Below, piece by piece: positions 27,589-42,357 of a stretch of 64,000 bases of DNA; positions within the stretch are counted from its first letter, which is position 1; the number at the start of each line of letters is the position of its first letter. Under the pieces are notes generated by a model, which was given only the letters and a program-made list of their open reading frames with translations, had not been told where the DNA came from and searched no databases. This stretch comes from Candidatus Iainarchaeum sp. (GTDB lineage: Archaea > Iainarchaeota > Iainarchaeia > Iainarchaeales > JAAZKV01): contig JAPLVR010000006.1 in assembly GCA_026397015.1 (NCBI GenBank), forward strand, positions 1 to 64,000, given 5' to 3'. A program made the position numbers and the translations under genes.

Positions 27589-29589
27589 CTATTGCCAGCT
27601 TAAAGTAGGGTATTCCCCTAACCAAACCCAGTTACCGTCATCCCAAGCCGGCGAACCCGTGTAAACGCCGTAACCGCTTGAGTAAAAGTCGGAAGCTTCG
27701 ACTGCATGTGTGCAGTTCGCATCGCCGCTGTGATAGCACGCGGTTGCGCTGTCGGACAGGTTGGAATCCAGCCAGTAAAGATTAAGCACTGACGCAGGAT
27801 CGTTATTGCCAACAACCCCCTCCGAATAGACGCCTCCTCCGTTAATCGTGCTGACAGAAAAAGAATTTTTTACGACCGAATCCCCATTGGTCCCAACTAT
27901 GCCTCCCGTATAACCACAACAACCCCCAGCGTTTATTGTTCCCGTGTTATATGAATTCACAATATAAGAAGGGCCATTATAACCAAACCCGTCCCATCCT
28001 ACCATGTTCAGCCCGGCTATCCCCCCGGTACGGACTCCTCCGGTTATGGTTCCGGTATTATAAGAATTCACCACCAAAGAGTCGGAGTTGAACCCTACTA
28101 TTCCCCCCACACTATCATCCTCCGGGCCGAGTGAGGTTATATTCCCCGCATTGTAAGAACCTTCCACGACCGACAAATATTCGTTTGACCCCGCCATTCC
28201 CCCGACCCATGCATACCCACTTACGGTTCCAGTATTATAAGAATTCACAACCGAAGAAGAATAATTCCACCCTGTTATTCCCCCGGCACAGCTCTCCTCG
28301 CCGCCACCGGCTGCAGTTACGGTTCCAGTATTATAAGAATTCACAACCGAAGAGTAATCGGCCTTTCCAACTATTCCCCCAATATGATAGTATCCGGTTA
28401 TGCTTGAGTTTTCCATCCCCAGATCCTTTACTTCTGAATGGTCAATCCGCCCAAACAAACCAACATAAGTTGTACTGGGACGGTAAATGTACAAGTCATT
28501 TATGGAGTAGTTCCTTCCATCAAATGTGCCGCTATATGGAGGCGTCACCACCCAAGTGCTTTCACAATCGTACTCGCAAGACCAACTGTTATCGCAATTC
28601 GGATTCGGATTTTCGCAATAACCCGCTTTGCCAATCGGCGCAAATCCCAAGTACTGCTCAAAAGTTTCGCTTTCCTCATCTTCATCCATATTCCAATTCA
28701 CTGTGTCGGAACAATCAATATCCTGCGCAAGCGCATAATTCGCATCCAAATCCAAACTCATATTTTGCAATTCAACACAACTTGACAAAAGGAACGGATG
28801 CGCATAACTGCCGTCCTGTAAAATAGAAAAATTCACATCCCAAGGACCGCCGTTATTACTACCAGCCCAATTACTATTCCCATCAACACAATTCACATCC
28901 CAAGAGTAAACTCCCTCCCCAATCGGAACAAAATTTTTATCGAAAGAGCCCGAATTGCCTGACTGGTCAAAACTGGTGCCAATAATCAAATTACAATTTG
29001 AAACCGCAACATTATCGCTTGCGGTGTAAGTAAAAGTAACAAAACCATCCTCATCAACGGTTCCGCTTAAAGGAGAAACCAAAGCAACACTCGGAGGAGT
29101 CGTATCACCCGGAACATACACCTGAACAGGAACATCAGGGGTACAACTCATAACAAACTCGGAAGGACCAACAGTATTTTGAACACCATATTTGTTTTTG
29201 TAAGTAATCTTCACGGAATAAGTCCGCGAACCACCAACACAACCAGACAGATTAGAAACAGTAACCGTTTGATCATCGCCCCCGGAAATCTTGGCGGAAT
29301 CAACATTCAAATCCACGCCATCAACATTAATCCCAGTGACAGTGACCTCTTCAAGCCCAGAATTTTTAAACTTAAAAATCGCATCACCATTCGAATCAGC
29401 ACCTGCATCAACAATCGCAAGACCCTGCGAAGACCAAAACAAATCAGCCCTGCCCTTATTAATGCCCGGGGTAGAATCAACAAAATCAGAAGCAAGAACA
29501 ACAACAACCAAACCAATAACAACAATAATCGCCAACAAAACAACATACTCAATAGTGCCCTGCGCAGATAGTTTAGAATGGGTTTGCAT
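27589..29589 (-). CDS. Class III signal peptide (pilin-like) GLUG-repeat surface protein, paralogue 1, with Ig-like insert
   Basis: SAQGTIEYVVLLAIIVVIGLVVV; DGSYAHPF..C.ELQ, GTFDG.NY.I..LYI, repeated (V/A)GGIxG...NSYNTG units, C-terminal YPTLSWQ; TATA TTTATATA about 23 nt upstream. Confidence 0.85.
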   Translation of the reverse strand: MQTHSKLSAQGTIEYVVLLAIIVVIGLVVVVLASDFVDSTPGINKGRADLFWSSQGLAIVDAGADSNGDAIFKFKNSGLEEVTVTGINVDGVDLNVDSAKISGGDDQTVTVSNLSGCVGGSRTYSVKITYKNKYGVQNTVGPSEFVMSCTPDVPVQVYVPGDTTPPSVALVSPLSGTVDEDGFVTFTYTASDNVAVSNCNLIIGTSFDQSGNSGSFDKNFVPIGEGVYSWDVNCVDGNSNWAGSNNGGPWDVNFSILQDGSYAHPFLLSSCVELQNMSLDLDANYALAQDIDCSDTVNWNMDEDEESETFEQYLGFAPIGKAGYCENPNPNCDNSWSCEYDCESTWVVTPPYSGTFDGRNYSINDLYIYRPSTTYVGLFGRIDHSEVKDLGMENSSITGYYHIGGIVGKADYSSVVNSYNTGTVTAAGGGEESCAGGITGWNYSSSVVNSYNTGTVSGYAWVGGMAGSNEYLSVVEGSYNAGNITSLGPEDDSVGGIVGFNSDSLVVNSYNTGTITGGVRTGGIAGLNMVGWDGFGYNGPSYIVNSYNTGTINAGGCCGYTGGIVGTNGDSVVKNSFSVSTINGGGVYSEGVVGNNDPASVLNLYWLDSNLSDSATACYHSGDANCTHAVEASDFYSSGYGVYTGSPAWDDGNWVWLGEYPTLSWQ
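28221..28353. repeat. 37-bp exact direct repeat within GLUG repeats
   Basis: TTACGGTTCCAGTATTATAAGAATTCACAACCGAAGA at 28221-28257 and 28317-28353. Confidence 0.9.
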
Positions 29590-29628
29590 AACGAAGAATA
29601 GCGCTGAACTGTATATAAACTTTTTTAA

Positions 29629-29979
29629 CTAACTGATTTTGCCAACTTCTTTCAGTGTCCTCATCGTTCCGGAAACGGCAATCGTGTTAAGTATGACCTT
29701 CTTGTTCCTAATCTTGCGGATGAATGCGAGACCCGCGATTAATTCCGTTTCTTTTCCGCGCCTGCATTTCAAAATCGCCTTGTTTTCCCTGTAAAGCACC
29801 AGTTTCGGGCTGATTTCCGCCAAGCCCTTCGAGCCGAAAAAGGAAAGCATTTCAATCCAGAAGCCGAAATAAAAATCCTTTTCATTTACCGCCGCGTTAA
29901 GCACTTCAAGAAGAACATACCTTTTCCTTTCCCGCTTCGACAGGGGAACAATCGCCTTCTTTTTCTTTTCTATTTTCAT
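29629..29979 (-). CDS. rnp2: RNase P protein component 2 (Pop5/Rpp14)
   Basis: KRERKRYV, FFGSKG, AILKCRR, VSGTMRTL. Confidence 0.9.
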   Translation of the reverse strand: MKIEKKKKAIVPLSKRERKRYVLLEVLNAAVNEKDFYFGFWIEMLSFFGSKGLAEISPKLVLYRENKAILKCRRGKETELIAGLAFIRKIRNKKVILNTIAVSGTMRTLKEVGKIS

Positions 29980-30530: not shown

Positions 30531-30554
30531 AAATTAAATGCGCGACCAAATTTT

Positions 30555-31148: not shown

Positions 31149-31264
31149 AAAAAACACTTCCAAATAAAAAAACCCAACTAACTAAATGCCCACCAGTTAC
31201 GCCAAATAAACTTTCGAATCAAAGAAGTTCATAAAAAAGATTTTATAAAGCTAACTAAGGCGGT

Positions 31265-31561
31265 TTAGCGGCTCCTTCCGCGCGGAGGCGTCTTTCTTCT
31301 TGTCAAAGCAGGATTGTTGCGCGGAACATTTCCCTGCCTTGAAATTCTCTTCGCGCCCGTATCAAAAAATCCGCCTTTTCGCGGGTAAACCTTTCTGCCA
31401 TTCGGCAAGTGCTCTACCAGATAAGTGGAAGCGCCTGCTGATTTATTCGCCAGCCTTAACACCCTTTTGAATGTAGTACTAACAATTGTATCTCCGCCGG
31501 TTTTCCTCGGCGCCGGCCCCTGCCCCCAAAAAGGCTCCGGTCTTTTTGCAGGTTTTCTCAT
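31265..31561 (-). CDS. Hypothetical Arg/Pro-rich small protein
   Basis: Fills the gap; GGTGTG SD-like element before TTG start; no known domain. Confidence 0.45.
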   Translation of the reverse strand: MRKPAKRPEPFWGQGPAPRKTGGDTIVSTTFKRVLRLANKSAGASTYLVEHLPNGRKVYPRKGGFFDTGAKRISRQGNVPRNNPALTRRKTPPRGRSR

Positions 31562-31611
31562 TCAACACACCTTTACATATTTCTTAAAGGTTTTACTATT
31601 TAAATGTTAGC

Positions 31612-32592
31612 ATGGCAAAAAAAGAAAAGGAGCCGGCTGGGCAAAAAAAATGCGACCGGTGCGGGGCAAAAGCGGCAATAACTCTCGCCTACGGTCCGCA
31701 CCATTTCTGCGAAAAACATTTCACCGATTTTTTTGAAAAAAGATTCAGAAAAACGGCAAGAAAATACGGGCTCATTAGGAACGGCGAAAAAATACTTGTT
31801 GCGCTGAGCGGAGGAAAAGATTCAACGCTTCTTCTTCACCTGCTGAAAAAGTTTTATTCGCGAAACCACAAAATCGAAGCGCTGATAATCGACGAAGGAA
31901 TAAGCGGATACAGGGATGAGGCGATAAAAATCGCGGTAAAAAACTGCAAAAAATTGGGGGTCAAACCGAAAATAGTTTCGTTCAAAAAAGAATTTGGAGT
32001 TACAAACGACAAAATAATGCCGCTGATTTTCAAGAACAGCAAACTCGGGGGCACATGCGCCTTCTGCGGAACGATGAGAAGAAACCTGATGAACAGGGGG
32101 GCGAAAAGGCTTGGCGCGGATAAGCTTGCAACGGGGCATAACCTTGATGACGAGGCGCAAAGCATTTTGATGAATATCTTCAACAACGATTTTGAGAGGT
32201 TCAGGAGGACTGGCGCAACAGCAGGAGTGATGGAACACAACGGCTTTGTGAAAAGGATAAAGCCGTTCTACGAAACGCCTGAAGACGAGATACTTGCTTA
32301 TTGTTCGTTCAGGGGAATCGAACATTTTTCGGGCGACTGCTGCCCCTACAGCTGGACAGCAAAAAGAAACGAATACAGAAAAATAATCGATGACTTGGAA
32401 AAAAAATTCCCGAATACAAAATTTTCGCTGCTCCGCTTTTATGAAAATTTGAAGCCTTTGCTCGCCCAAAAAAAAGGCGAAAAGAAGGCGGCGAAAAAGG
32501 CGCTTGGAAAATGCGAAAAATGCGGCGAACCCACCGAACACGAATTGTGCATGGCGTGCAAACAGGTCAAAAAAATTATTGATTTGATTTAA
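31612..32592 (+). CDS. tRNA 2-thiolation protein TtuA/Ncs6 family (TIGR00269-like)
   Basis: N-terminal CxxC..CxxH, SGGKDS PP-loop, CAFCG, TGHNLDD, CPY, C-terminal CxxC..CxxC. Confidence 0.92.
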   Translation: MAKKEKEPAGQKKCDRCGAKAAITLAYGPHHFCEKHFTDFFEKRFRKTARKYGLIRNGEKILVALSGGKDSTLLLHLLKKFYSRNHKIEALIIDEGISGYRDEAIKIAVKNCKKLGVKPKIVSFKKEFGVTNDKIMPLIFKNSKLGGTCAFCGTMRRNLMNRGAKRLGADKLATGHNLDDEAQSILMNIFNNDFERFRRTGATAGVMEHNGFVKRIKPFYETPEDEILAYCSFRGIEHFSGDCCPYSWTAKRNEYRKIIDDLEKKFPNTKFSLLRFYENLKPLLAQKKGEKKAAKKALGKCEKCGEPTEHELCMACKQVKKIIDLI

Positions 32593-32639
32593 GCCGGGCA
32601 AAATTAAAAATTACTGATTTGATTTAGTTCGGCACGAAA

Positions 32640-34481
32640 TTATTTCTTGCCCAGCAGAGTTTGGATGTAACCCGCAAATTCGTTTTCAAACTTTTCAAGC
32701 CCTTCTATTTTTGCGTCAAAAATCAAAACTCTTTCTTTGATTTGCCTTTCAGCATCAACGTTTTTCTGGTCCAGCGCATTTATCGAATCGTTCATTCTCA
32801 CAAGCGTTTCTTCCATGTTTTTCAGGAACTGTTTCTTGAACTCGTCAAGGATTTCTATCTTCTGCTTTAGAGTGTCAAGAGAAAGCTGTTTCTCCGCCGC
32901 CTTTATTTTGTTTAATTCCACTTCCATTTCCTGAATCAAGCCTTCCGCTTTTTGAATCGCGAGCTCGTCAATCCTCTGCTCGGCTTCCTGCAGCATTCCT
33001 TCCGCAATATTTTTTTCAAGTTCAAGCGTTTTCGCAATCCTATCGTCCATTTCCTTCAGGTGCGCATCCGCCGCGTCAATGAATTCCTGCGTCTGCGATT
33101 TTATTCTTATTAACTCCGAATTTGACTCTGAAATAACCTGCACTTTTGTCCTTCGCACCTCGTCGATTGCGGCCGTGAGCTGTGCAAGCGCATCATCCCG
33201 CTCCCGCCTTGTTTTTTCAAGAGTAACGAGGTTTGATTTGAGCTCGTTGTTGTACTGCCTCAGCTCCGCTATTTTCGAATCGATTATGAAGGCGATTTCC
33301 CTCAATTTTTCTTCAAGCGCTTCGGTGTTGCTGGAAATAATCAATTCTTTCTGGGAGTCGAGCAGAATCTTGAATTTTTCTGTTTCCTTTCTAACTGCCG
33401 CATCAACCTTTTGGTCCACAACAGCATCAACATCGCTCTTTAATTTTTTCATTTCAGAAAGTTTTGCGTTTATCGCAATAACTATCCCTTTCTTCCAAAG
33501 CTGTTCAATGTCATTGTCGGAAACGGCGTCAAGGGAACTCGGCTTTCTTTGCGGCACAACCTTTTTAATTTCTTGAACCGGGATCTCCTGCGCGAAACTT
33601 TTTTGCAAATTTTTTGCTTCAACTTGCTGCACACTTTTTTGCCCGGCTTTTTTTGAGGTTTCAGAAGCAACTTCGCTAATTATTTTATTCACAATAAGAT
33701 TTTCAGATTCCTCCTGTGTTGGAGCCTCTTCCTGTTTTTCTTCAACCGATTTTGCGGTTGAAAATAAGGGCCTGACAACCTGCCTTGAACTTGCTGCCTT
33801 CAAAGCGTCTTCCTTTTCCTGCCGCTGGCGCTGAGGACTTTTCGAAAGCTTTCTCAGCGCATTAAGCGCATCGCTTTCCTCTTCAGCTTCCGATTCTGTT
33901 TGGTTTCCACTTCCACCCATTCCTTTTGTTCCCGCGCCTACCGCATTTTTTGCGGAATTCACTTCTGCGTTAAGGGAGTCCGCCTGCGCGTCAAGGGATT
34001 CCTCGGTTTCCGGCGCGTCCTCCTCTATTTTAATTCCAGTGTCGATTTCTGAAGGTTCTATTTCATTGTCGTCTTCATCCTCGACGCCTGAAATGTTTTC
34101 AACGGAACCGTTTTTTTGCTGTGCAGATGATTGGCCCTGTGAAACTTGCGAAAGGTTTTGCTGGCTCTTGGTAAGCTGTTCTGTTATTTCATCGAAAACG
34201 TCCTTTGAACCTTCTTCTTTTGAAGAGCCGTATTGAGAAGGCTGGGAAATCTGCCGCGAATAAGAAGGCTGCGCATTCGATTGTATCGAAACATATTCCT
34301 CAATCTTCGGCTGGCCAAAAGAACTCGCGGCAGTTGAACCGCTTCTGGCTTCCATCGTAAGTTCAAGGGCTTCTTTTTTGTCAACACCGACGTCAGCCAG
34401 GTTTGACACTATTTCTTCGTCAGAAACTCCGAGGGCAATGAGCTTTTTTATGGAGTCAAGTATGAGTTCGCGCTTGTCCAT
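32640..34481 (-). CDS. Large protein: small helical N-domain, acidic disordered linker, ~290-aa C-terminal coiled coil
   Basis: Heptad-rich E/K/L C-terminal half; S/Q/E-rich middle. Confidence 0.7.
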   Translation of the reverse strand: MDKRELILDSIKKLIALGVSDEEIVSNLADVGVDKKEALELTMEARSGSTAASSFGQPKIEEYVSIQSNAQPSYSRQISQPSQYGSSKEEGSKDVFDEITEQLTKSQQNLSQVSQGQSSAQQKNGSVENISGVEDEDDNEIEPSEIDTGIKIEEDAPETEESLDAQADSLNAEVNSAKNAVGAGTKGMGGSGNQTESEAEEESDALNALRKLSKSPQRQRQEKEDALKAASSRQVVRPLFSTAKSVEEKQEEAPTQEESENLIVNKIISEVASETSKKAGQKSVQQVEAKNLQKSFAQEIPVQEIKKVVPQRKPSSLDAVSDNDIEQLWKKGIVIAINAKLSEMKKLKSDVDAVVDQKVDAAVRKETEKFKILLDSQKELIISSNTEALEEKLREIAFIIDSKIAELRQYNNELKSNLVTLEKTRRERDDALAQLTAAIDEVRRTKVQVISESNSELIRIKSQTQEFIDAADAHLKEMDDRIAKTLELEKNIAEGMLQEAEQRIDELAIQKAEGLIQEMEVELNKIKAAEKQLSLDTLKQKIEILDEFKKQFLKNMEETLVRMNDSINALDQKNVDAERQIKERVLIFDAKIEGLEKFENEFAGYIQTLLGKK

Positions 34482-34557
34482 CCAATATCAAACTATAAAT
34501 AGTTCTTATTGAATAAAAAGCTGTTGGTGGGGTTTAATTCGGCTTTAAGAGACCTGT

Positions 34558-34791
34558 TTAAGGAGAAATCATTACTATGCTGTCGCCGCGAACCATAATC
34601 TTGCCGTAATTTGTTTTCAGCTGGCCGTCAACTATCTGGGAAGCGTTTTCAAGGACTATATTCATGTGAATGTCGAAAGCTTTGAGCTTTCCCCTCACCT
34701 GTGTGCTTCCCTTCATTACAACAAGCACTTCTTTTCCGAGAGAATCGTTCAACAAATCGAACGGCCTGTTGCTCATTTTTTCATTCATCAT
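34558..34791 (-). CDS. Sm-like archaeal protein (SmAP1/Lsm)
   Basis: RPFDLL..SLGK.VLV, GKLKAFDIHMNIVL, VRGDSIVMISP. Confidence 0.95.
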   Translation of the reverse strand: MMNEKMSNRPFDLLNDSLGKEVLVVMKGSTQVRGKLKAFDIHMNIVLENASQIVDGQLKTNYGKIMVRGDSIVMISP

Positions 34792-35579
34792 TTCTTCCAC
34801 CAGAAAAATAATCTTGCAAGCAAACCTTTTTTAATGAACCCTTCCTTCTGCGCATCTTCCTGCACTTTCAACCCTGTTAGGCGCGAAGCGATTCGCTGGA
34901 ACTCAATTGCAGCCGGAGAATTCGGAATACGCGCAATTACCGGCGCAGCCTTTTCCTGAGAAAATGTTCTTCTTACTTCAGGGTCGTCTGGAACGGAACC
35001 GTAAACAGGGGTTTCCAAAAAATTCGCAATATCCTGCTGAGGAATTTCGCCCTTCTCCTTCCGCACAAAATTAATTATAACGCCCGTTACTTTCGCCCCG
35101 AGGCGCTGGGCAATCTGCCGGGTTTTCTCCGCATCCGCCAAAGCGGGCGGATTCGGCATCGTAACAAGAAGCATTTCCTGCGAAGCGCTTATCGCGCTGA
35201 TTACCTGCTTTTCAATTCCTGCCGCCGCATCCAGCAAAATATAATCGTAATCTTCCTCAATTTCTTTTATCACCCCGGCTAATCTTTCGCTGTCCAACCG
35301 CTTGTAATTTTCCAGGCTCATTCCGGACGGAACCAAATGAATGCCGCCCGGCCCGTCATAAATGGAATCCCTTATCTGCGCCTCGCCCAAAAGAACATCG
35401 TGCAAAGTTATCGGCGAACTCTGCATTCCCAAAATGAGCGAAAGGTTCGCCATCGCGACGTCCGCGTCGATTAACAAAACTTTTTTTCCTAATTTAGAAA
35501 GTGCTATTCCCAAATTTGCCGTAAGAGTTGTTTTTCCTGTTCCGCCCTTTCCGGAAGCAATTACCATTATGCGCGCCAT
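34788..35579 (-). CDS. minD: MinD-family ATPase
   Basis: SGKGGTGKTT deviant Walker A, DADVAMANL, C-terminal amphipathic KGLLARLF. Confidence 0.92.
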   Translation of the reverse strand: MARIMVIASGKGGTGKTTLTANLGIALSKLGKKVLLIDADVAMANLSLILGMQSSPITLHDVLLGEAQIRDSIYDGPGGIHLVPSGMSLENYKRLDSERLAGVIKEIEEDYDYILLDAAAGIEKQVISAISASQEMLLVTMPNPPALADAEKTRQIAQRLGAKVTGVIINFVRKEKGEIPQQDIANFLETPVYGSVPDDPEVRRTFSQEKAAPVIARIPNSPAAIEFQRIASRLTGLKVQEDAQKEGFIKKGLLARLFFWWKK

Positions 35580-35750
35580 TCAATCCCACCGATTTATAAC
35601 CTATAAAAGCTGTAAGAGTATAAAACTGTTTCCCTTAATATAAAATAAAAAAAATACCATGCTGTCCCGAAATTGAATATTTGTCACTAAGCAAAAACAA
35701 AAAACTATCAAAAATCAAAAAAATTTAAAAAAAATGAGGCGCTTTTTGAA

Positions 35751-38201
35751 TTAGTCAGTCTGCCACTTCAAAATGGGGTAATCGTTGCCCTGCTCGGTCC
35801 AGACGTTGGTAAAGTCCCAGCCGGAGTGGAACGGTTCTTTTTCTTCGGAATAAACCGAACCCTTGAAATAATCGGCGCCGGAACTTTCATAAGTCCTGTT
35901 GCAGTAAAAAACAGTGTCCATCGCGGTGCCGTTATTTCCGCTTCCGCTTGAATCATTCAGGTCGCCGTCCAATTGCCAAAATCCCAAAGCTCCGGAAACT
36001 GTGCCGCCGCCGAAGAGAGTGGCGACTTCGTCGGCACTTAAATTACGGTCCCAGATGCCGACCTCATCTATTCTCCCCTTCCACTGCCTCTCCGCACCGG
36101 TATTATACCCTGTTCCAAGTGCAAGGTTCGGAAGGCTGGTTGGCCACAGAGTGCTTTTCGCGGCGTTGAAAATCAGCGAATTATCCAGGTAGCCTTTGAC
36201 ATTGCTCGCGTTTTTGTCCCAAACAAATACCACATGATACCATCTGTTGGCATCCATCGGGTTCCCGAGGCCGGTATTCATATGTTGGTTTGCAGTAAAG
36301 TCTCCGGTCCCGATAACAACGCCGAATGATCTATCGCCCGCTTCCTCAAATCTTATGCCGTTGTTTCCGCCATTGTAATTGGTTGTAAGAGGGTTTCTGT
36401 AATTTGCAACTTCGTCAGCGTACATCCAGAAGCTTATTGTACCCTTGTCAGGGAAGTTGGCTGAAATGTTCCCGATGCTTATGTAAGTGGTTCCGCTAAT
36501 GAATCTGTACGCTGAATTGGGGTTGCTGAGCCTGTCATCAACAAAGTTCTGGTCAACAGTATATTGGTTGTTAGTGTAGTATGAGTTGGATGCCGCACTG
36601 CTACAGTTGCCGAAACCACGCGCATTGGTTCCGCTCATCGCACTCGTCGTAAAACTGTTGCTTGTATTGTTATGCACCCCCGCAAAACCGCCTATGTTTG
36701 ATGCGCCGGTTCCGTTCACGGTTCCCGTCGAATACGCTCTCGAAGCGGTTCCAGAACCTTCAATAACCCCTGCAAGCCCCCCAACATAGTTGCTGGTGCC
36801 GGTTACATTCCCGGTCGCATAAGAATCATAAATCGAGGTCCCGCTCCCGCTGTTCCCAACCAGACCGCCGATACGCTGAGAACCTGAAACATTCCCTCCC
36901 GCAAAGGACTCGGAAACAGGACAGCCTGCCCCCGTTAGCCCCCCAACACGCTCGCCGCCAGAAACACTTGCAAGAGAATACGATTCCGAAATGCTCCCAC
37001 AGACGCCCGAAAGCCCTCCGACATAATTGCTAACCCCTCTGACAGTGCCCGTAGTGTACGAACCGGTGATAGCTGCCCCTTGGCCCACCAATCCGCCAAC
37101 AATATCCTTGCCAGTCACATTGATATCCGCCAAACCCACATCCCTTATCGTTACGGACGAATTCATGTAGCCAAGCAGCCCGACATAATTCTCGCTCGGC
37201 CGATTTATGTACAAATTACTTATCGTGTGGTTTTGGCCGTTGAAAGAGCCGCTGAAGTCAGTATGCAACCAAGTGCCTCCGCAGCCGTCGGATTCGCGGG
37301 TACAACTCTCCGCATCTGTGCATCCTGTATTCAACCAGTTCTGTTCATATCCGCAATATGGTTCGGTTATCCATGTGCACTCATCATTTTCGCAGTCCTC
37401 CTGGCTACCGTACTCTCCACGCCACCCCCCCTCCTCACCATACATATAGAAGCACACTGGAAGGCTTTCTGTAATCCACTCCAGCCCGCAGCCTCCCGCT
37501 TCGCGTTCGCATGATGCCTCGTCACCGCACCCTCCCACCGTGCAACTAGCCGGGTCGCCTATCGGGTTGAAACCCGCGCCGCCATTCCAAGTATTGGTAT
37601 CAGAACAATCGATATTCTGTGCGAGCGCGTAATTCGCATCCAAATCATTGTTCATGTCCTGCAATTCATTACAGTCGGACAAAAGGAACGGGTGCGCGTA
37701 ACTACCATCCTCATATACTGAAGGTATAACATCAGTGGTACAACTCACGACCAGCTCCCCGCCGGAAACAATATGCAACAAACCATCCGCATCCCTATAA
37801 ACAACTCTTACCAAATAAGTCCTTGAACCGCCAACACAAGGAGACAAATCACCAACCGAAACACTCGCCTCCCCCCCCCCCAAAACCCTCGAAAAAGAAA
37901 CATTCACATCAACACCATCAACACTCAAACCAACAACATTAACATCCCCCACACCATTATTCCTAAACCTAAACAACGCATCCCCATTAGAATCAGCAAC
38001 AGACCCAACAATCCCCACACTCTGAAAAGCCCAAAACAAATCAGACTTATTCTTCGCAATACTAGGCGCAGACTCGATAAAAGAAGCCACCAAACTAACA
38101 ACAACCAAACCAATAACAACAATAATTGCGAGCAAAACAATATACTCAATAGTACCCTGCGCCTTTGGAGATTTAATGCGCGCCAAAAAATAGTTCCACA
38201 T
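35751..38201 (-). CDS. Class III signal peptide GLUG-repeat surface protein, paralogue 2, with Cys-rich insert and LamG domain
   Basis: KAQGTIEYIVLLAII; GLUG units; LamG motifs TISFW, WYHVVFVWD, KGRIDEVGIWDRNLS; C-terminal YPILKWQ; TATA TTTATATA about 21 nt upstream. Confidence 0.87.
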   Translation of the reverse strand: MWNYFLARIKSPKAQGTIEYIVLLAIIVVIGLVVVSLVASFIESAPSIAKNKSDLFWAFQSVGIVGSVADSNGDALFRFRNNGVGDVNVVGLSVDGVDVNVSFSRVLGGGEASVSVGDLSPCVGGSRTYLVRVVYRDADGLLHIVSGGELVVSCTTDVIPSVYEDGSYAHPFLLSDCNELQDMNNDLDANYALAQNIDCSDTNTWNGGAGFNPIGDPASCTVGGCGDEASCEREAGGCGLEWITESLPVCFYMYGEEGGWRGEYGSQEDCENDECTWITEPYCGYEQNWLNTGCTDAESCTRESDGCGGTWLHTDFSGSFNGQNHTISNLYINRPSENYVGLLGYMNSSVTIRDVGLADINVTGKDIVGGLVGQGAAITGSYTTGTVRGVSNYVGGLSGVCGSISESYSLASVSGGERVGGLTGAGCPVSESFAGGNVSGSQRIGGLVGNSGSGTSIYDSYATGNVTGTSNYVGGLAGVIEGSGTASRAYSTGTVNGTGASNIGGFAGVHNNTSNSFTTSAMSGTNARGFGNCSSAASNSYYTNNQYTVDQNFVDDRLSNPNSAYRFISGTTYISIGNISANFPDKGTISFWMYADEVANYRNPLTTNYNGGNNGIRFEEAGDRSFGVVIGTGDFTANQHMNTGLGNPMDANRWYHVVFVWDKNASNVKGYLDNSLIFNAAKSTLWPTSLPNLALGTGYNTGAERQWKGRIDEVGIWDRNLSADEVATLFGGGTVSGALGFWQLDGDLNDSSGSGNNGTAMDTVFYCNRTYESSGADYFKGSVYSEEKEPFHSGWDFTNVWTEQGNDYPILKWQTD
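37871..37881 (-). repeat. G11 homopolymer in coding strand (LGGGE)
   Basis: 11 consecutive C on the + strand. Confidence 0.9.
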
Positions 38202-38265
38202 ACTCTAATATGCGCCTCGGCTATATAAATATTTTCCCAAAAATCAGCAGGGACAAAATGAGACC

Positions 38266-38727
38266 TTAAATTTTCAAATCGCCCAAGCCGTAAGATTCGA
38301 AAACGCCCGCTTCCTTTTTTTCCGCCTGGAAATTGTCGGAAAAAACCGCCGGAACCATTTTTGCCACGTCCTTCAAAGAAAGATTTGCGGGAAGCAGAAG
38401 CTCCTCGTCAAAAGCGGTAACCAAATCAATCTGCGACCGCGCCAATTCAACCGCCTGAAAGTAACCCTTTCCCTTTGCCCCGTTCAAAAAATATTTTAGA
38501 GCTTCTTTTCCCTTGAAGCCCGCCCCTACCGACAGGCATTCGGCAAAGCAGGCGTACATTTTTCCTTCCTTGAAAAACAAAACGCTCTCCTCTATGCAGG
38601 ACGCCTTAACTGTTTGTATCAGATAGCCGCTGAAACCGCCGTCAACCAGGCTTTTCGCAATCGTCTCAAAATCGAACGGAATCGTTCCCTTCAAAACAAC
38701 CTTTCCTGCGGGAAAATTCATTTGCAC
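38266..38727 (-). CDS. DUF2226-family protein
   Basis: MNFPAGKVV...GFSGYLI...EESVLFFKEG pattern. Confidence 0.65.
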   Translation of the reverse strand: MQMNFPAGKVVLKGTIPFDFETIAKSLVDGGFSGYLIQTVKASCIEESVLFFKEGKMYACFAECLSVGAGFKGKEALKYFLNGAKGKGYFQAVELARSQIDLVTAFDEELLLPANLSLKDVAKMVPAVFSDNFQAEKKEAGVFESYGLGDLKI

Positions 38728-38818
38728 ACCACAATTTTAAAAATCAAATCCTGAAAACAAAATTCAACCAAATTATTGCTCGCCCCTCAAATAAATTACT
38801 GCTCTCAATTCAAAAAAA

Positions 38819-39271
38819 TTACTGCTTGCCCTTCAAAAAAATAACTTTATCGGCCGTATTCTTCAAAGCAGCCGCACTCATCTTTTCGCCCATTATCGCA
38901 ATCGTTTCCTTTCCCCTGTTCTTTGCCTTTATTATCGCGGGCAAAAAATCGGAGTCGCGCGTCACAAAAACAATCGCATCAATCGAATCATTGAAAACAG
39001 TTTCAGTTGCATCACAAGCCATCGCAACATCAATATCCGTTGTTGAAACCAAAGGCTCGAAACCCTGATTCACAACAGCTTCTACCAGCTTTTCGGAAGC
39101 AAACTGATTCAAATAAACTTTTCCGACTTTCATCGAACCGAGCTTCTGGACCTCTTTCTTAATCAAGTCCAAATCGATGCCCAATTCTTTCCTCAAAATG
39201 TTCGGACCGTCAACGAAAACCGCCAAACGCTTCTCCTTCTGGCCGAAACGCTTCTTAAATCTCTCAAACAC
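38819..39271 (-). CDS. NYN-domain (PIN-like) protein, TIGR00288 family
   Basis: FVDGPNILRKE, TDIDVAMA, TRDSDFLP, LKNTAD; GTG start near 39271 (ORF open to 39370). Confidence 0.9.
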   Translation of the reverse strand: MFERFKKRFGQKEKRLAVFVDGPNILRKELGIDLDLIKKEVQKLGSMKVGKVYLNQFASEKLVEAVVNQGFEPLVSTTDIDVAMACDATETVFNDSIDAIVFVTRDSDFLPAIIKAKNRGKETIAIMGEKMSAAALKNTADKVIFLKGKQ

Positions 39272-39374
39272 AAAAACCACTTTCCACCGATTCCCGCCGA
39301 AACGGGAACAAAAATAAGTTAGCCTGAAAGGGTATAAAACTGTTTCTCTTGCTGAAAAAAAAGAACACAAAAAA

Positions 39375-41195
39375 TCATTCCACTTGCCAAGTCAATATTG
39401 GATAATTATCAACACGTGCTGTCCAGTTCTTATCTAAGCCGAAAGTCCAGTAAGGTACCACCGTATCATAAACATTATGGTCTTGAGAATAGAAAACAGT
39501 TTTATCCGCTTCATTATAAGTCACATTCCCGTCAGGGTTCCCTATCGCATTCCAATCCCCAGCACCAGTCCACCAGCCGCAATTGGAAACTGTTCCTTCT
39601 TTGAATCCGACTAGACCCCCAACATCAATAGTTCCAGATACAGCCCCTGTCGAATAAGAGTTAGAAACAGCACCCCCGGCCCAGCCGACTAGTCCCCCGA
39701 CATAATTAGTGCCAATTGTAATCCCCGTTGAATAAGAATTAGAAATCGACCCATCCCATTGACCTCCAACTAGCCCACCAACATCATAACCGCCAGTTAC
39801 ATTCCCTATTGAATAAGAATCAGAAATTGCCCCCCCTTCTTGGTCTCCGACTAGGCCCCCAACCTCATCAGAATCAGGAGTGCCAGTTACATTCCCTGTT
39901 GAATAAGAATTAGAAATTGCCCCACTATTTTTGAACCCGACTAGGCCCCCAAGAGAATCAGAAGTTCCATTTACGCTTCCTGTTGAATAAGAATCAGAAA
40001 TCGTTCCATATTGGTGTCCGGCTAGGCCACCGACATCATAACCAGAACCATTTACGCTTCCTGTTGAATAAGAAGCAGAAACCGTTCCCTCTTGGGTTCC
40101 GACAAGGCCCCCGACTTCATTAACACCATTTACAGCCCCTGTTGAATAAGAATTAGAAATCGCCACCCCTGGATATTGGAGTCCTACCAGGCCTCCGACT
40201 TCATTAACACCATTTACAGCCCCTGTTGAGTGAGAGTTAGAAATCGACCCATACTGCCATCCAACGAGACCCCCGATACCATCATTAGAACTGGTTACGC
40301 TTCCTGTTGAATAAGAATCAGAAATTGCCCCCCCTTCTTGGTCTCCGACTAGGCCCCCAACCCCTTCACCAGAACTATTTATGCTTCCCGCCGAATAAGA
40401 ACCAGAAATCACCCCATATTGGTATCCGACGAGACCCCCGACATAGTTACCGCTGCCAGTTACACTCCCTGTTGAATAAGAACCAGAAACCGTTCCAGAC
40501 TCTTGATATCCGATTATTCCCCCAACCTCCGAGTTTCCGGTTATATTCGAGTTTTCCATTCCCAAATCCTTTACTTCCGAACCATTAACATACCCGAATA
40601 AGCCAACATTGTTCGTGTTTGGCCGGTAAATGTACAAATTGCTTACCGAGTAGTTCCCTCCGTCAAGGCTGCCGGTAAACTCATTCATAGCATCCCCAAT
40701 CGGCACAAAGCCAGATTCAGGCGGTGGCGAGAAGTCCAAGTGCCGCCCAAAAACTCCGCTGCCCTCATCTTCTTGTAGGTTCCAATTAATGGTATTAAAA
40801 CAATTAATGTCCTGCGCGAGCGCGTAGTTCGCATCCAAATCATTGCTCATACCCTGCAACTCATTACAATCGGACAAAAGGAACGGATGCGCATAACTAC
40901 CGTCCTCAAATGGTGGAGCAGGAACAACAGGAACATCAGGCGTACAATTGACAACAAACTCGGAGGGGCCGACAGTATGCTGGATACCATACTTATCCTT
41001 GTAAGTAATCTTCACGGAATAAGTCCGCGAACCACCAACACAACCAGACAAATCGGAAACTATAATCGTTCTATCATCGCCTCCGGAAATACTGGCGGAA
41101 TCGAAATTCAAATCCACACCATCAACATTAATCCCAGTAACAGTAACATTCTCAAACGTTTCTTTTTTAAAAACAACCCAATTCATTTTATTCAA
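39375..41195 (-). CDS. GLUG-repeat surface-protein paralogue 3, lacking the class III signal peptide (5'-truncated)
   Basis: Homology to paralogue 1 begins at about VTVTGINVDG; more than ten VGGLVG...SNSYSTG units; C-terminal YPILTWQ; no QGTIEY/hydrophobic helix upstream. Confidence 0.75.
   Translation of the reverse strand: MNKMNWVVFKKETFENVTVTGINVDGVDLNFDSASISGGDDRTIIVSDLSGCVGGSRTYSVKITYKDKYGIQHTVGPSEFVVNCTPDVPVVPAPPFEDGSYAHPFLLSDCNELQGMSNDLDANYALAQDINCFNTINWNLQEDEGSGVFGRHLDFSPPPESGFVPIGDAMNEFTGSLDGGNYSVSNLYIYRPNTNNVGLFGYVNGSEVKDLGMENSNITGNSEVGGIIGYQESGTVSGSYSTGSVTGSGNYVGGLVGYQYGVISGSYSAGSINSSGEGVGGLVGDQEGGAISDSYSTGSVTSSNDGIGGLVGWQYGSISNSHSTGAVNGVNEVGGLVGLQYPGVAISNSYSTGAVNGVNEVGGLVGTQEGTVSASYSTGSVNGSGYDVGGLAGHQYGTISDSYSTGSVNGTSDSLGGLVGFKNSGAISNSYSTGNVTGTPDSDEVGGLVGDQEGGAISDSYSIGNVTGGYDVGGLVGGQWDGSISNSYSTGITIGTNYVGGLVGWAGGAVSNSYSTGAVSGTIDVGGLVGFKEGTVSNCGWWTGAGDWNAIGNPDGNVTYNEADKTVFYSQDHNVYDTVVPYWTFGLDKNWTARVDNYPILTWQVE
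39809..40362. repeat. Tandem ~81-90 bp GLUG coding repeats, including a 56-bp exact duplicate
   Basis: 39809-39864 identical to 40307-40362 (encodes VGGLVGDQEGGAISDSYS). Confidence 0.9.
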
Positions 41196-41253
41196 ACAGT
41201 TTTAAGCCTAAATTAATTTAATTTCGCTTGAGAAAGGAAAAATAGGTGGTTTT

Positions 41254-41646
41254 ATGGTTGATGAGAAGAAATTTGAGGGCGCCGGCTCGTTAAAGCCGGG
41301 CAGCCACGTTTTAATAGACGGCGAAGTTTGCCAGGTTAAGAGCGTTGAAAAATCAAAGCCGGGAAAGCACGGCGCCGCGAAGGTAAGGGTAGTCGCATTT
41401 AACATTTTTACAGGGCAAAAAAGAGGGTTGCTCAAGGGAACTGATGCGGAAGTAGAAATACCGATTATTCCAAAGGGAACGGCGCACGTAGTCGCAATAA
41501 TGGGCGACGTTATCCAGATAATGGACATTGAAAATTACGAAACCTACAACGCGCCGAAACCCGCAGAAATTCCCGGATTGGCTTCGGGCGTAACCGTGGA
41601 ATACCAAAAATACGGCGAAAATGTGAAAATAACGAGAAAGAAATAA
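41254..41646 (+). CDS. eif5a: Translation factor aIF5A
   Basis: KSKPGKHGAAK hypusine-site motif; GGTGG SD. Confidence 0.96.
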   Translation: MVDEKKFEGAGSLKPGSHVLIDGEVCQVKSVEKSKPGKHGAAKVRVVAFNIFTGQKRGLLKGTDAEVEIPIIPKGTAHVVAIMGDVIQIMDIENYETYNAPKPAEIPGLASGVTVEYQKYGENVKITRKK

Positions 41647-41721
41647 TTCACATAAACCGTTCGAACAAAAATTCGGCTTGAAAGCGCAAGCCTAATTAAA
41701 CCAATCTTTAATACTTCATTC

Positions 41722-42357
41722 ATGGCAACACCTGCAAAAAAACCAAAGGCGCTTCTTTTAATTTCCGGCGGCATCGACTCGCCCGTCGCCGGGCTGCTTG
41801 CGCAGAAAAAATTTGAAATCGGGGCGGTTCATTTCTCACAAACACCTTTCACAGATGACAGCCCGGAAAAAAAATCAATTGCGGCGTGCAAAAAATTGGG
41901 CTTGAAAGAACTCGCCGTTATTGAGGCGGGAAACGAGTTCAAGGAAATCGCTGAAAACGGCGGAAGGCCGTTTTACTTTGTATTGATGAAAAGATTCATG
42001 ATGAAGACCGGGGAAAAAATCGCGGAGCAAAGGGGCGCTGAATTTTTAATCACGGGGGAAAGCATCGGGCAGGTAAGCTCGCAGACGATGAGCAACCTCA
42101 ACACAATAAACTCCGCCACAAAAATGGAAATTTTGCGGCCGCTGATGTTCATGCATAAGCAGGAAATAGTTGACCTAAACATTGCGAACGGCTTTTTCGA
42201 GATTTCAAAGGGGCCGGAGCTCTGCGATGCTCTCGCAACCGAAAAGCCGAAAACAAAAACAAAAATAAAAGAAGTGCTATTTGAAGAGGAACGGTGCGGA
42301 ATGGAAGCGCTGGTCGAAAGGGCGATGAATAAAATAAGAATTGTTGCAATTAATTAA
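41722..42357 (+). CDS. ThiI-like PP-loop catalytic domain only (no THUMP)
   Basis: LLISGGIDSPVA, TGESIGQVSSQT..NL, ILRPL...KQEI, GPELC. Confidence 0.85.
   Translation: MATPAKKPKALLLISGGIDSPVAGLLAQKKFEIGAVHFSQTPFTDDSPEKKSIAACKKLGLKELAVIEAGNEFKEIAENGGRPFYFVLMKRFMMKTGEKIAEQRGAEFLITGESIGQVSSQTMSNLNTINSATKMEILRPLMFMHKQEIVDLNIANGFFEISKGPELCDALATEKPKTKTKIKEVLFEEERCGMEALVERAMNKIRIVAIN

What the first reader, a model, noticed from the sequence alone, without database searches (positions are those of the whole stretch)
37700..38130. Strand-specific A>G / C>T drift concentrated in the 5' module of the adhesin genes
Seen: the + strand at 37921-37980 is A26 C23 T10 G1, so the coding strand is G/T-rich. 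All 19 complete codons there end in G or T (GCG TTG TTT AGG TTT AGG AAT AAT GGT GTG GGG GAT GTT AAT GTT GTT GGT TTG AGT). The 3' end of the same gene uses many C-ending codons (GAC ACC AAC GTC ACC GGC AAC TAC CCC), and housekeeping genes here are A-rich on the coding strand. In the aligned codons checked, differences from paralogue 1 are mainly A>G and C>T: FKFKN>FRFRN (AAG/AAA>AGG) and ITYK>VVYR (ATT ACT TAC AAA > GTT GTT TAT AGG). The 5' parts of #1 (~28800-29589) and #3 show a milder version. Inference: this resembles deamination of an exposed single strand, or repeated error-biased copying of a conserved 5' cassette. That would be a localised mutational process unlike a classical DGR, since no RT or TR/VR is present here.
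Basis: partly seen in the sequence, partly recalled or inferred. Interest (0 to 1): 0.72.

Follow-up and report, generated by a model that had tools for sequence, protein, structure and literature searches.

The report
G/T-skewed head of archaeal adhesin gene
The first 450 bases of a surface-adhesin gene in a tiny archaeon have lost almost every A and C that the genetic code lets them lose, the strongest such bias in its genome; the bias is real and old rather than an active mutator, and its cause remains open.

Summary
Window 37700-38150 is the most G+T/A+C-skewed stretch of the 899-kb genome. It is the 5' head of a pilin-like adhesin gene (p2, 35751-38201, minus strand). G/T ends 91% of its first 150 codons, against 55% expected from its amino acids and its strand, and 81 codons in a row end in G or T.

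Amino-acid composition and the genome-wide strand skew do not explain the bias; intergenic DNA reaches only 0.54. It is not a clean A>G/C>T signature, because T>G is as frequent and T is enriched beyond what transitions allow. It is not specific to p2 or to 5' ends. Six to eight other surface-protein gene segments show it, one opposite-strand gene shows its mirror image, and paralogues in the sister species are at 0.73-0.86. Once polarised, p2's own changes are nearly balanced, so the skew is ancestral and close to equilibrium. Contig pieces covering 37671-37917 and 38034-38220 in a second study, and all of it in the possible source run, match exactly, so nothing shows active hypermutation. 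No reverse transcriptase was found.

The best reading is a long-standing, local, strand-asymmetric mutation pressure on a separately inherited head module. Selection for G/T-rich recombination substrate is the main rival. This scan has noted similar blocks in other genomes.

The parts
35751..38201 (-). p2: an 816-aa pilin-like adhesin gene. It has a class III signal-peptide-like N-terminus, a ~150-aa head module, a Cys-rich region, GLUG repeats and a Laminin_G_3 domain.
   Evidence: ORF and translation. Pfam: Laminin_G_3 at 3.6e-20; Glug at 22.5 bits (cut-off 20.5); Class_IIIsignal at 18.7 bits, below its 23.7 cut-off.
37766..38162 (-). The skewed block, about codons 14-145 of p2. The coding strand is about T 40%, G 34%, A 16%, C 10%, and GT3 is 0.92-0.93.
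   Evidence: Likelihood change point at codon 145 = 37766, with GT3 0.92 before and 0.52 after. Composition by codon position. Genome-wide rank 1.
37833..38075 (-). An unbroken run of 81 codons (43-123) that all end in G or T.
   Evidence: this is the longest such run in the genome; the next longest are 39 and 28 codons.
38082..38165 (-). The part of the head that encodes the KAQGTIEY motif and the hydrophobic helix (class III signal-peptide / pilin-like N-terminus). It is conserved among paralogues.
   Evidence: Motif scan of the genome found 11 such N-termini. Alignment. The Pfam PF04021 match is sub-threshold.
38222..38229 (-). A TATA-like box about 21-28 nt upstream of the p2 start codon. 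This is inferred, and it suggests a leaderless or short-leader transcript, so the skew would begin within ~40 nt of the likely transcription start.
   Evidence: Read from the sequence. No promoter tool for archaea was run and no RNA data exist.
37871..37881 (-). An 11-base G homopolymer in the coding strand (codons GGG GGG GGG). It is the longest G/C homopolymer in the genome.
   Evidence: only two G/C runs of 9 or more exist in 899 kb. No length variant appears in the contigs laid.
27589..29589 (-). p1: a 666-aa paralogue. Its milder skew covers 28710-29589 (codons 1-293, GT3 0.81), ending near the DGSYAHPF junction motif.
39375..41195 (-). p3: a paralogue that lacks the signal peptide and the first ~85 codons of the head. 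Its first 30-codon bins have GT3 0.7-0.9.
   Evidence: In the sister species the gene beside aIF5A has an intact head.
40924..41158 (-). A 236-nt head-module cassette, 99.2% identical to C5:3899-4134. Both copies start at the same point and have unrelated DNA upstream.

Best explanation
The block is the promoter-proximal head module of a mosaic, multi-copy pilin-like adhesin gene. The module carries the signal peptide and the pilin-like N-domain. For a long time it has evolved under a local, strand-asymmetric substitution pressure that strips A and C from the coding (non-template) strand.

The most likely cause is mutational. The coding strand of this module spends extra time single-stranded, which favours C>T and A>G deamination-type changes plus some changes towards T. 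This adds to the weaker genome-wide strand asymmetry of the same sign. The most probable local amplifier is transcription from the gene's own promoter, through the transcription bubble or R-loops. The pressure also pushed the protein towards G/T-rich codons (K>R, I/T>V).

The skew ends where the head is joined to a body of different history. The module is at or near compositional equilibrium. It is not an active hypermutation or diversity-generating system.

Shown here: the skew, its limits, its independence from amino-acid composition and from the genome-wide skew, its age, and its stability between samples. Inferred: single-strand exposure, the role of transcription, and the recombinational mosaic.
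For: Magnitude and controls: GT3 is 0.913 against 0.548 expected. Intergenic DNA is only 0.54 keto on the same strand. Adjacent same-strand housekeeping genes are ordinary, at 0.48-0.60.

Two-fold sites are almost fixed for T and G: 33 of 34 and 26 of 28.

All three codon positions are shifted. Keto fractions at positions 1 and 2 are 0.71 and 0.61, against 0.53-0.65 and 0.47-0.50 in paralogues. The keto fraction expected from the amino acids alone is already 0.606. This points to pressure at the nucleic-acid level, not to synonymous codon choice.

The sign matches the genome-wide asymmetry. All 40 top windows, from 14 genes, lie on the favoured strand of their contig.

The skew starts within ~40 nt of the start codon and TATA-like box.

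In relatives the head modules exceed their strand-matched background whichever strand they lie on. The regression intercept is 0.62 against 0.49, with slope 0.88 on the local strand effect, across 40 modules. Examples on the unfavoured strand are L030 at 0.91, L048 at 0.83, L031 at 0.82 and L035 at 0.73.

The trait is inherited along module lineages. p1, p2 and two modules of the sister species have 0.79-0.91, and the positional orthologue of p1 has 0.73 against 0.58-0.63 for its neighbours. It appears to decay in one copy: C5_329949 has 26 private changes away from G/T and 3 towards.

No EndoV (hypoxanthine repair) was found in the 85%-complete genome.
Against: Ribosomal-protein and translation-factor genes, which are normally highly transcribed, show no excess: L37ae 0.41, L15e 0.57, L10e 0.41, aIF5A 0.42, aIF1A 0.44.

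Small pilin genes on the other strand have GT3 0.37-0.42.

A surface-protein gene on the opposite strand (C5:204490-207780) shows the mirror image, with four-fold sites at A 0.59 and T 0.06. That fits a chromosome-strand process and not transcription.

In other genes the skewed part lies in the middle or at the 3' end: C5:336018, C5:339035 and C3:26043.

The spectrum is not purely deamination-type: T>G 23, C>G 13 against G>C 4, and four-fold pyrimidines 0.65 against 0.53.

Some relatives' head modules fall below background: L059 at 0.20 against 0.35, L046 at 0.33, L028 at 0.36.

No expression data exist. The association with the local strand effect in relatives is weak (Pearson r 0.33; Spearman 0.24, p 0.14), and related sequences are not independent.
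Confidence: 0.38

Rival explanations
1. Selection at the DNA level. The G/T-rich coding strand of the conserved head module is kept because it favours homologous pairing or R-loop/G-rich structures. These would drive exchange of adhesin modules between expressed genes and 5'-truncated copies, much as the strong coding-strand GC skew of Borrelia vls cassettes is thought to serve gene conversion.
For: The skewed part is the part shared among paralogues. It ends near the conserved junction motifs where module exchange is seen or suspected: the p2 change point is at 37766 and the p1 change point at 28710.

Contigs from the possible source sample join the p2 head to the p1 body at 37667>28781, and the p3 head to p1 at 29121>40914.

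Two 99.2%-identical cassettes are truncated at the same point. A third, p2-type, truncation lies about 10 nt away and is seen in two studies.

Six of the eight extreme segments examined have paralogous or internal repeat DNA.

Coding-strand GC skew is 0.55 here. vls cassettes average 0.52, against 0.18 for the chromosome's leading strand (PMC11499132, passages read).

RadA is present. The preference of RecA/Rad51-family proteins for GT-rich DNA is recalled from Tracy and Kowalczykowski 1996/1997; it was not found.
Against: Paralogues share only 72-85% DNA identity in the head, which is low for efficient homologous exchange.

The GLUG repeats, which are also repeated DNA, have only moderate GT3 of 0.5-0.7.

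Two skewed segments, the C5:339035 3' half and C1:204474, have no repeat partner. One of them looks cytoplasmic.

Many relatives' head modules are unskewed.

The joints were found at 85% likeness in a metagenome, so they may come from other organisms.

No contiguous silent-cassette array exists.
Confidence: 0.2
2. Single-strand exposure that comes from replication or recombination intermediates, not from transcription. Repeated, hard-to-copy or frequently recombining gene segments would stall forks or be resected, so the same chromosomal strand is repeatedly left single-stranded. That would locally amplify the genome-wide asymmetry.
For: In this genome every extreme follows the chromosomal strand. 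All 14 genes with the highest GT3 lie on the favoured strand. The opposite-strand Cys-rich repeat gene C5:204490 is the mirror image. Pilin genes on the unfavoured strand lie slightly below background. Most extreme segments are repeats or paralogous modules. Block ends coincide with module junctions.
Against: In relatives several head modules are strongly G/T-rich on the locally unfavoured strand: L030 0.91, L035 0.73, L048 0.83, L031 0.82, L052 0.70 and L056 0.66. The slope on the local strand effect is about 1, which means the effects add and do not amplify. Transfer of modules between loci could blur this test.
Confidence: 0.17
3. Foreign origin. The head module, or the set of skewed segments, was acquired from a donor with uniformly skewed composition, for example a rolling-circle or single-stranded DNA element or a relative with much stronger strand bias.
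For: The skew is patchy across mosaic genes. A 3.6-kb segment containing the block has about five times the depth of its flanks in the possible source sample, so other genomes or copies carry it. Adhesin genes diverge far faster than their neighbours: 48% against 79-87% identity with the sister species.
Against: The skew stops at codon ~145, while the high-depth segment runs on to codon ~467 and through two ordinary genes with GT3 0.59 and 0.69. The head family is native to this archaeal family: 23 of 24 genomes carry it, at 1-21 copies each. The skew is shared by the sister species' paralogues. No background gene set in any of the 40 fetched 20-kb loci exceeds about 0.64. No close relative was found in metagenome contigs.
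Confidence: 0.08
4. Translational or RNA-level selection. The skew would reflect a slow-codon ramp for a secreted protein, use of wobble-decoded codons only, or an unstructured 5' mRNA.
For: Many codons favoured in the block are rare in same-strand genes: AGT 0.09, GGT 0.15, TCT 0.15, GCT 0.16. The block covers the signal peptide.
Against: tRNAs with C at position 34 exist for Ala, Gly, Lys, Arg, Ser and Glu, so G-ending codons are not wobble codons. The predicted folding energy of the first 300 nt is ordinary: -65.3 against -69.6 +/- 12.0, rank 66 of 200. The bias also changes amino acids. It runs for 150-293 codons, and in other genes it lies at the 3' end. A probably cytoplasmic gene also has it. 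The mirror-image gene contradicts any RNA-level rule.
Confidence: 0.04
5. An active, targeted hypermutation system, either DGR-like copying through an error-prone reverse transcriptase or a dedicated DNA deaminase, that is diversifying the adhesin head today.
For: Only the strand-specific loss of A and C, and the location in a surface protein.
Against: No RVT_1 match was found (the genome is 85% complete). There is only one ordinary cytidine/dCMP-type deaminase gene, hit by both PF00383 and PF14437. The block has no template-like near-identical repeat; the best matches are 72-81%. The block is identical in contigs of the possible source run (36778-39398 without a difference), and the pieces that cover parts of it in two runs of a second study (37671-37821, 37721-37917, 38034-38220) also match exactly. 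p2's private changes are few and balanced.
Confidence: 0.02

Closest known systems
Heavy/light-strand asymmetry of vertebrate mitochondrial DNA, with the G+T-rich ND6 gene (recalled; no paper read here)
   Same: One strand is stripped of A and C wherever the code allows. Third positions are nearly saturated. Amino-acid content is dragged along, towards V, G, F, L and R. The usual explanation is C>T and A>G deamination of the strand that stays single-stranded longest.
   Different: Here the block is 0.4-0.9 kb inside single genes of a cellular chromosome, not a whole replicon. The neighbours are unaffected. T is enriched beyond what transitions give. No strand-displacement replication is known or shown.
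Borrelia vls antigenic-variation cassettes (PMC11499132, passages read)
   Same: Both are surface-protein gene families with pronounced coding-strand GC skew: about 0.52 in vls against 0.18 for the leading strand, and 0.55 here against 0.12 for same-strand genes. Both have promoterless or 5'-truncated copies and intact reading frames in those copies.
   Different: vls has a contiguous array of about 90%-identical silent cassettes, high G+C and AT skew near zero. Here G+C is ordinary (0.40-0.45), AT skew is strong (-0.43), the paralogues are 72-85% identical and scattered, and no switching was observed.
Transcription-associated strand asymmetry and R-loop-linked GC skew (E. coli non-transcribed-strand C deamination; mammalian G+T excess on the coding strand, strongest near the 5' end; recalled, with PMC10030826 seen only in the search listing)
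   Same: There is a G+T excess on the coding strand that begins near the transcription start and decays downstream.
   Different: The magnitude here is far larger. It is absent from ribosomal-protein genes of the same genome. It ends abruptly at a module junction.
Replication-linked strand-specific codon usage, as in Borrelia burgdorferi (recalled)
   Same: The genome does have such an effect: GT3 is 0.555 against 0.434 on contig C1, constant along 220 kb. The block has the same sign.
   Different: The genome-wide effect is about +/-0.06 and the block deviates by +0.36. Intergenic DNA reaches only 0.54.
Neisseria pilE/pilS pilin variation (recalled)
   Same: Both involve type IV pilin-like genes, with extra copies that lack the conserved 5' part encoding the signal peptide and N-terminal helix (p3 and C5:2657-4134).
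   Different: No evidence of unidirectional gene conversion into an expression site was obtained, there is no G4-type element, and the truncated copies carry different long C-terminal bodies.
Diversity-generating retroelements
   Same: Both involve targeted change in a surface or binding protein, and adenine is a base that is lost.
   Different: There is no RT, no template repeat and no population variability, and C is lost as well as A.

Membership tests
Diversity-generating retroelement (DGR) | A reverse transcriptase gene in the element or genome | tested here: not met
   PF00078 found no match in the own genome, which is 85% complete; the control rang in 3 of 14 genomes.
Diversity-generating retroelement (DGR) | A template repeat nearly identical to the variable region, differing at template adenines | tested here: not met
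   The best DNA matches to the block are 72-81% identical paralogues, with changes of all kinds.
Diversity-generating retroelement (DGR) | Variability of the target region within populations | tested here: not met
   In the possible source run (X1) one contig covers 36778-39398 with 0 differences. In a second study, pieces cover 37671-37821 (X4) and 37721-37917 and 38034-38220 (X5) with 0 differences, so only part of the block is covered outside the source run. Contigs can hide rare variants.
Replication-associated strand compositional asymmetry | The same sign of skew as the surrounding chromosome strand, affecting genes of both orientations | tested here: met
   Minus-strand genes of C1 have GT3 0.555 and plus-strand genes 0.434, constant along the contig. 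The block lies on the favoured strand. A mirror-image gene lies on the other strand.
Replication-associated strand compositional asymmetry | A magnitude shared with neighbouring genes and non-coding DNA on the same strand | tested here: not met
   Neighbouring genes have 0.48-0.60 and intergenic DNA 0.54, against 0.91 in the block. The expected value given strand and amino acids is 0.548.
Single-strand deamination signature (C>T plus A>G on one strand) | An excess of T over C and of G over A at two-fold degenerate sites of one strand | tested here: met
   T/(T+C) is 0.971 (n=34) and G/(A+G) is 0.929 (n=28), against 0.564 and 0.455 in the background.
Single-strand deamination signature (C>T plus A>G on one strand) | Transitions alone account for the shift, with the purine/pyrimidine balance at four-fold sites unchanged and transversions symmetric | tested here: not met
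   Four-fold pyrimidines are 0.65 in p2, 0.73 in p1 and 0.70 in C3:26043, against 0.53. Counts are T>G 23 against G>T 15, and C>G 13 against G>C 4.
Transcription-associated strand asymmetry | A G+T excess on the non-template strand that starts near the transcription start | tested here: met
   The block starts about 40 nt after the start codon and TATA-like box, on the coding strand. The transcription start is inferred, not mapped.
Transcription-associated strand asymmetry | The effect scales with transcription level | tested here: inconclusive
   Ribosomal-protein and initiation-factor genes show no excess. No RNA run holds this DNA, so p2's expression is unknown.
vls/pilS-type cassette antigenic variation | One expression site plus promoterless partial copies with high identity to it | tested here: inconclusive
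   5'-truncated copies exist: p3, C5:2657-4134, and a p2-type loose end at 37944. They are 72-85% identical to the expressed genes, scattered, and fused to different bodies. An assembly artefact is not fully excluded.
vls/pilS-type cassette antigenic variation | Segmental gene-conversion variants in the population | tested here: inconclusive
   Hybrid joints (p2 head with p1 body, p3 head with p1 body) appear at depth 8-9 against 22 in the possible source sample. They were found at 85% likeness in a metagenome.
Class III signal peptide / archaeal type IV pilin-like proteins (PF04021) | An N-terminal class III signal peptide followed by a hydrophobic helix | tested here: inconclusive
   PF04021 scores 18.7 bits, below its cut-off of 23.7. 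The KAQGTIEY-plus-hydrophobic-stretch pattern is shared with 10 other N-termini in the genome. Calling this pattern a class III signal is recalled knowledge.

The most novel reading that the evidence does not exclude
The G/T-skewed head module is a cis-acting recombination element. Its extreme coding-strand G and T excess would promote R-loops or RadA pairing. Expressed pilin-like adhesin genes of this DPANN archaeon could then swap modules with 5'-truncated, signal-peptide-less copies (p3, C5:2657-4134, and a p2-type copy seen in two studies). That would be an archaeal counterpart of pilE/pilS or vls surface variation, and the skew would be both its tool and its scar.
Probability: 0.12. Interest if true: 0.8.

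Novelty: new variant of a known kind. Interest (0 to 1): 0.45.

Why it matters
Strand asymmetry of this strength is textbook for mitochondria and whole replicons. It is not known for a few hundred bases inside single chromosomal genes. If the cause is mutational, these blocks mark places where one DNA strand of an archaeal chromosome is chronically exposed, strongly enough to rewrite a protein's amino-acid composition. If the cause is selective, it would point to a cis element for exchange of surface-protein modules in host-dependent DPANN archaea, whose attachment proteins are central to their biology.

The scan has noted comparable local blocks in unrelated bacteria and archaea (unchecked notes e1-2150092, e1-1168641, e1-2474384). 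The phenomenon may therefore be general and still unexplained.

Tried and rejected
1. Unstructured 5' mRNA. The minimum free energy of the first 300 nt of p2 is -65.3 kcal/mol, against -69.6 +/- 12.0 for 200 randomly sampled genes, rank 66. An earlier attempt on all genes timed out. Rejected.

2. The idea that G/T-ending codons are all wobble-decoded. ARAGORN finds 26 tRNAs, among them C34 species for Ala, Gly, Lys, Arg, Ser and Glu. Rejected for G-ending codons.

3. Amino-acid composition as the cause. Rejected.

4. Relaxed selection under the genome-wide skew. Intergenic DNA is only 0.535-0.541 keto on the favoured strand in the four contigs examined. Rejected.

5. RT and extra deaminases. 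None were found beyond one ordinary gene.

6. Close alleles of the p2 head for a fine-scale spectrum. The search for related loci on metagenome contigs matched 555 patterns, and none was confirmed. The second scan was not used.

7. Model-based polarisation. Only site-pattern counts on extant sequences were made, and their counts are small.

8. Within-population SNP spectrum from reads. All nine listed runs are kept as contigs only, so rare variants could not be seen.

9. Expression. No RNA holder is listed.

10. A literature search for GT-rich pairing preference returned nothing usable.

11. Parts of the laid stretch without cover in X3-X5 are not interpreted.


Full report
WHAT IS THERE

The window is the first 64 kb of contig C1 of an 899-kb, six-contig genome that is 85% complete. 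The gene content is archaeal housekeeping: the exosome, proteasome and RNase P cluster, aIF5A, aIF1A, MCM with an intein, and topoisomerase VI. Earlier unchecked notes of this scan call the organism a DPANN (Iainarchaeota) archaeon.

The finding lies in gene p2 (35751-38201, minus strand, 816 aa). Its parts are:
- an N-terminus with the KAQGTIEY motif and a hydrophobic helix; the Pfam Class_IIIsignal match is sub-threshold at 18.7 against 23.7 bits;
- a head module of about 150 aa;
- a Cys-rich stretch;
- GLUG repeats;
- a Laminin_G_3 domain.

Paralogues p1 (27589-29589) and p3 (39375-41195) share the head and the GLUG repeats. The head family is very large in this taxonomic family: 23 of 24 other genomes searched have it, at 1-21 matches each.

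Whole-genome rank. Of 17,939 windows of 300 nt, the five most extreme for G+T against A+C all lie at 37651-38200. The keto fraction is 0.22-0.27 on the plus strand, against a genome mean of 0.489 and sd of 0.051.

Third positions. I made a crude gene set of 806 ORFs covering 88% of the genome. In it, G/T at third positions (GT3) of p2 codons 1-150 is 0.913. This ties for the top among 3,263 windows, which have mean 0.487 and sd 0.080.

Run length. Codons 43-123 are 81 consecutive G/T-ending codons. The next longest runs are 39 and 28 codons.

Limits of the block. A likelihood change point puts the end of the block at codon 145 (37766), with GT3 0.92 before and 0.52 after. In p1 the change point is at codon 293 (28710), with 0.81 before and 0.57 after. 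Both lie near the conserved DGSYAHPF junction motif.

WHAT DOES NOT EXPLAIN IT

Amino-acid composition. Given p2's residues and the codon usage of same-strand genes, the expected GT3 is 0.548 (sd 0.039; the maximum of 10,000 simulations was 0.68). The rest of p2 is exactly as expected, 0.520 against 0.518.

Genome-wide strand skew. A genome-wide asymmetry exists. Minus-strand genes of C1 have GT3 0.555 (n=112) and plus-strand genes 0.434 (n=100), constant along the 220-kb contig. All 40 top windows, from 14 genes, lie on the favoured strand of their contig. The effect is small, however. Intergenic DNA is only 0.535-0.541 keto on the favoured strand. The same-strand neighbours of p2 have 0.48-0.60.

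Other explanations tested:
- mRNA folding of the 5' end is ordinary.
- G-ending codons have their own tRNAs.
- No reverse transcriptase was found.
- There is one ordinary cytidine/dCMP-type deaminase gene.
- UDG and RadA are present, and EndoV was not found.

WHAT THE SIGNATURE LOOKS LIKE

Two-fold sites. The block is nearly fixed for T (33 of 34) and G (26 of 28), against 0.564 and 0.455 in the background.

Four-fold sites. The composition is T 0.59, G 0.29, C 0.07 and A 0.05. Pyrimidines are therefore 0.65 against 0.53 in the background, and 0.73 and 0.70 in p1 and in C3:26043. Transitions alone cannot give that.

Differences from p1 to p2. The counts are A>G 25, T>G 23, C>T 22, G>T 15, G>A 14 and C>G 13, with smaller classes below.

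Codon positions 1 and 2. They are shifted too, to 0.71 and 0.61 keto. The replacements run K>R, I/T>V and N>S/D. The pressure therefore acts on the nucleic acid and drags the protein with it.

IT IS OLD, SHARED AND STABLE

In a tree of seven head modules, p2 groups with two modules of the sister species and with p1. All four have GT3 0.79-0.91. The two outgroup modules have 0.49-0.54.

I counted columns where the other four ingroup modules agree:
- p2 has 22 private differences, 8 towards G/T and 6 away. Per site this is 0.133 against 0.041, or 3.2-fold.
- The least skewed member, C5_329949, has 26 away and 3 towards.

These counts are small, and conditioning on agreement biases them. Ancestral reconstruction was not available.

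The positional orthologue of p1 in the sister species is only 48% identical, while the flanking proteins are 79-87% identical. Its GT3 is 0.73, against 0.58-0.63 for its neighbours.

Contigs of one run of the possible source sample cover the whole block without a difference, and pieces from two runs of a second study cover 37671-37917 and 38034-38220 without a difference. No raw reads were available, so rare variants are not excluded.

IT IS NOT SPECIFIC TO 5' ENDS OR TO THIS GENE

In the own genome the same composition occurs in:
- the 3' part of C5:336018-337169;
- the 3' half of C5:339035-341083;
- the repeat region of C3:26043-27752;
- all of C5:2657-4093;
- a probably cytoplasmic gene, C1:204474-205145.

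A Cys-rich repeat gene on the other strand, C5:204490-207780, is the mirror image, with four-fold sites at A 0.59 and T 0.06. Small pilin genes on the unfavoured strand have 0.37-0.42. Six of eight extreme segments have paralogous or internal repeat DNA.

In relatives I examined 41 head modules in 40 fetched 20-kb loci. One was dropped because its locus had no opposite-strand genes. The modules range from 0.20 to 0.91. Regression on the local strand effect gives an intercept of 0.62 and a slope of 0.88 (Pearson r 0.33, p 0.035; Spearman 0.24, p 0.14). The modules are related, so they are not independent. Several are strongly skewed on the locally unfavoured strand, and a few fall below background.

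HOW IT MOST LIKELY WORKS

I favour, at about 0.4, a long-acting local mutational asymmetry. The coding strand of a separately inherited, promoter-proximal head module would spend extra time single-stranded. This adds to the weak genome-wide bias, with transcription as the likeliest local amplifier.

The main facts against this are:
- the ordinary composition of ribosomal-protein genes;
- the mirror-image gene;
- the 3'-located blocks in other genes.

These facts keep two rivals alive. One is exposure during replication or recombination of repeated DNA (about 0.17). The other is selection for a G/T-rich recombination substrate (about 0.2). The second is encouraged by the parallel with Borrelia vls cassettes, whose coding-strand GC skew of about 0.52 is held to serve gene conversion (PMC11499132, passages read). 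The skew here is 0.55.

Foreign origin, translational selection and an active hypermutator are unlikely, for the reasons given under the rivals.

THE SURROUNDINGS ARE AS INTERESTING AS THE SKEW

Truncated copies. p3 lacks the first ~85 codons of the head. Its 236-nt start is 99.2% identical to C5:3899-4134, which is truncated at the same point and sits next to unrelated genes. In the sister species the gene beside aIF5A has an intact head. A p2-type copy that breaks about 10 nt from the same point appears in two studies.

Hybrid contigs. Contigs in the possible source sample join the p2 head to the p1 body and the p3 head to p1. They were laid at 85% likeness, so other organisms are possible sources.

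Depth. A contig covering 36778-39398 has depth 102, against 22 for the flanks, in one run. In the other three runs the ratio is about 1.4-2.

VERDICT

This is a real and very strong local strand bias. It is not an active diversifier. The mechanism is unresolved. This scan has noted similar local blocks in other genomes (those notes are unchecked).

Noticed in passing
window 36778-40500: In run X1 (the possible source sample) the contig covering 36778-39398 has depth 101.7, and bins up to ~40526 have ~100-124. The flanks have ~22 (29499-36807 and 41158-42000). In X3-X5 the ratio is only about 1.4-2. The segment runs from the GLUG repeats of p3 to those of p2. It may be shared with other strains, or it may be amplified.
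   Followed up: partly
window 40924-41158 and G000:C5:3899-4134: This is a 236-nt head-module cassette in two loci, 99.2% identical. Both copies start at the same point, lack the signal peptide, and are fused to different bodies (GLUG repeats in one, propeller-like repeats in the other). The sister species has an intact head at the aIF5A-adjacent position.
   Followed up: partly
window 37667/28781, 29121/40914 and 37944: Metagenome contigs join the p2 head to the p1 body at the DGSYAHPF junction (depth 9.3). Others join the p3 head to p1 at the CTPDVP junction (depth 8.3). A p2-type head with unrelated upstream DNA from 37944 is seen in X1 and X4. These were laid at 85% likeness, so they may come from relatives.
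   Followed up: no
window 37871-37881: An 11-base G run inside the p2 reading frame. It is the longest G/C homopolymer in the genome and a candidate slip-strand switch. No length variant appears in the contigs.
   Followed up: partly
window 26750-31163: p1 sits inside the conserved cluster of proteasome alpha, RNase P (Pop5, Rpp30) and L15e, in the same orientation. The sister species has an adhesin at the same place, but it is only 48% identical, against 79-87% for the neighbours.
   Followed up: yes
G000:C5:204490-207780 (+): A 1096-aa Cys-rich repeat surface protein whose middle part has the mirror-image bias. Third positions are A 0.45 and C 0.32; four-fold sites are A 0.59 and T 0.06.
   Followed up: partly
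G000:C3:26043-27752 (+): A secreted protein with repeats of a WSGW...C...NPSP..C..G..C..G pattern. They look like thrombospondin type 1 repeats (a recalled label, not tested). The repeat region has GT3 0.86-0.9.
   Followed up: no
G000:C1:204474-205145 (-): A 223-aa protein with no signal peptide and whole-gene GT3 0.74-0.8. It lies convergent with the radA gene (203514-204230). This is the one clearly non-surface gene with the skew.
   Followed up: no
window 43829-47053 (+): An MCM helicase gene interrupted by an intein with a LAGLIDADG domain.
   Followed up: no
window 38266-39370 (-): Two small genes lie between p2 and p3, inside the high-depth segment. One is 153 aa with no Pfam family. 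The other is a 183-aa NYN-domain (ribonuclease-like) protein.
   Followed up: partly
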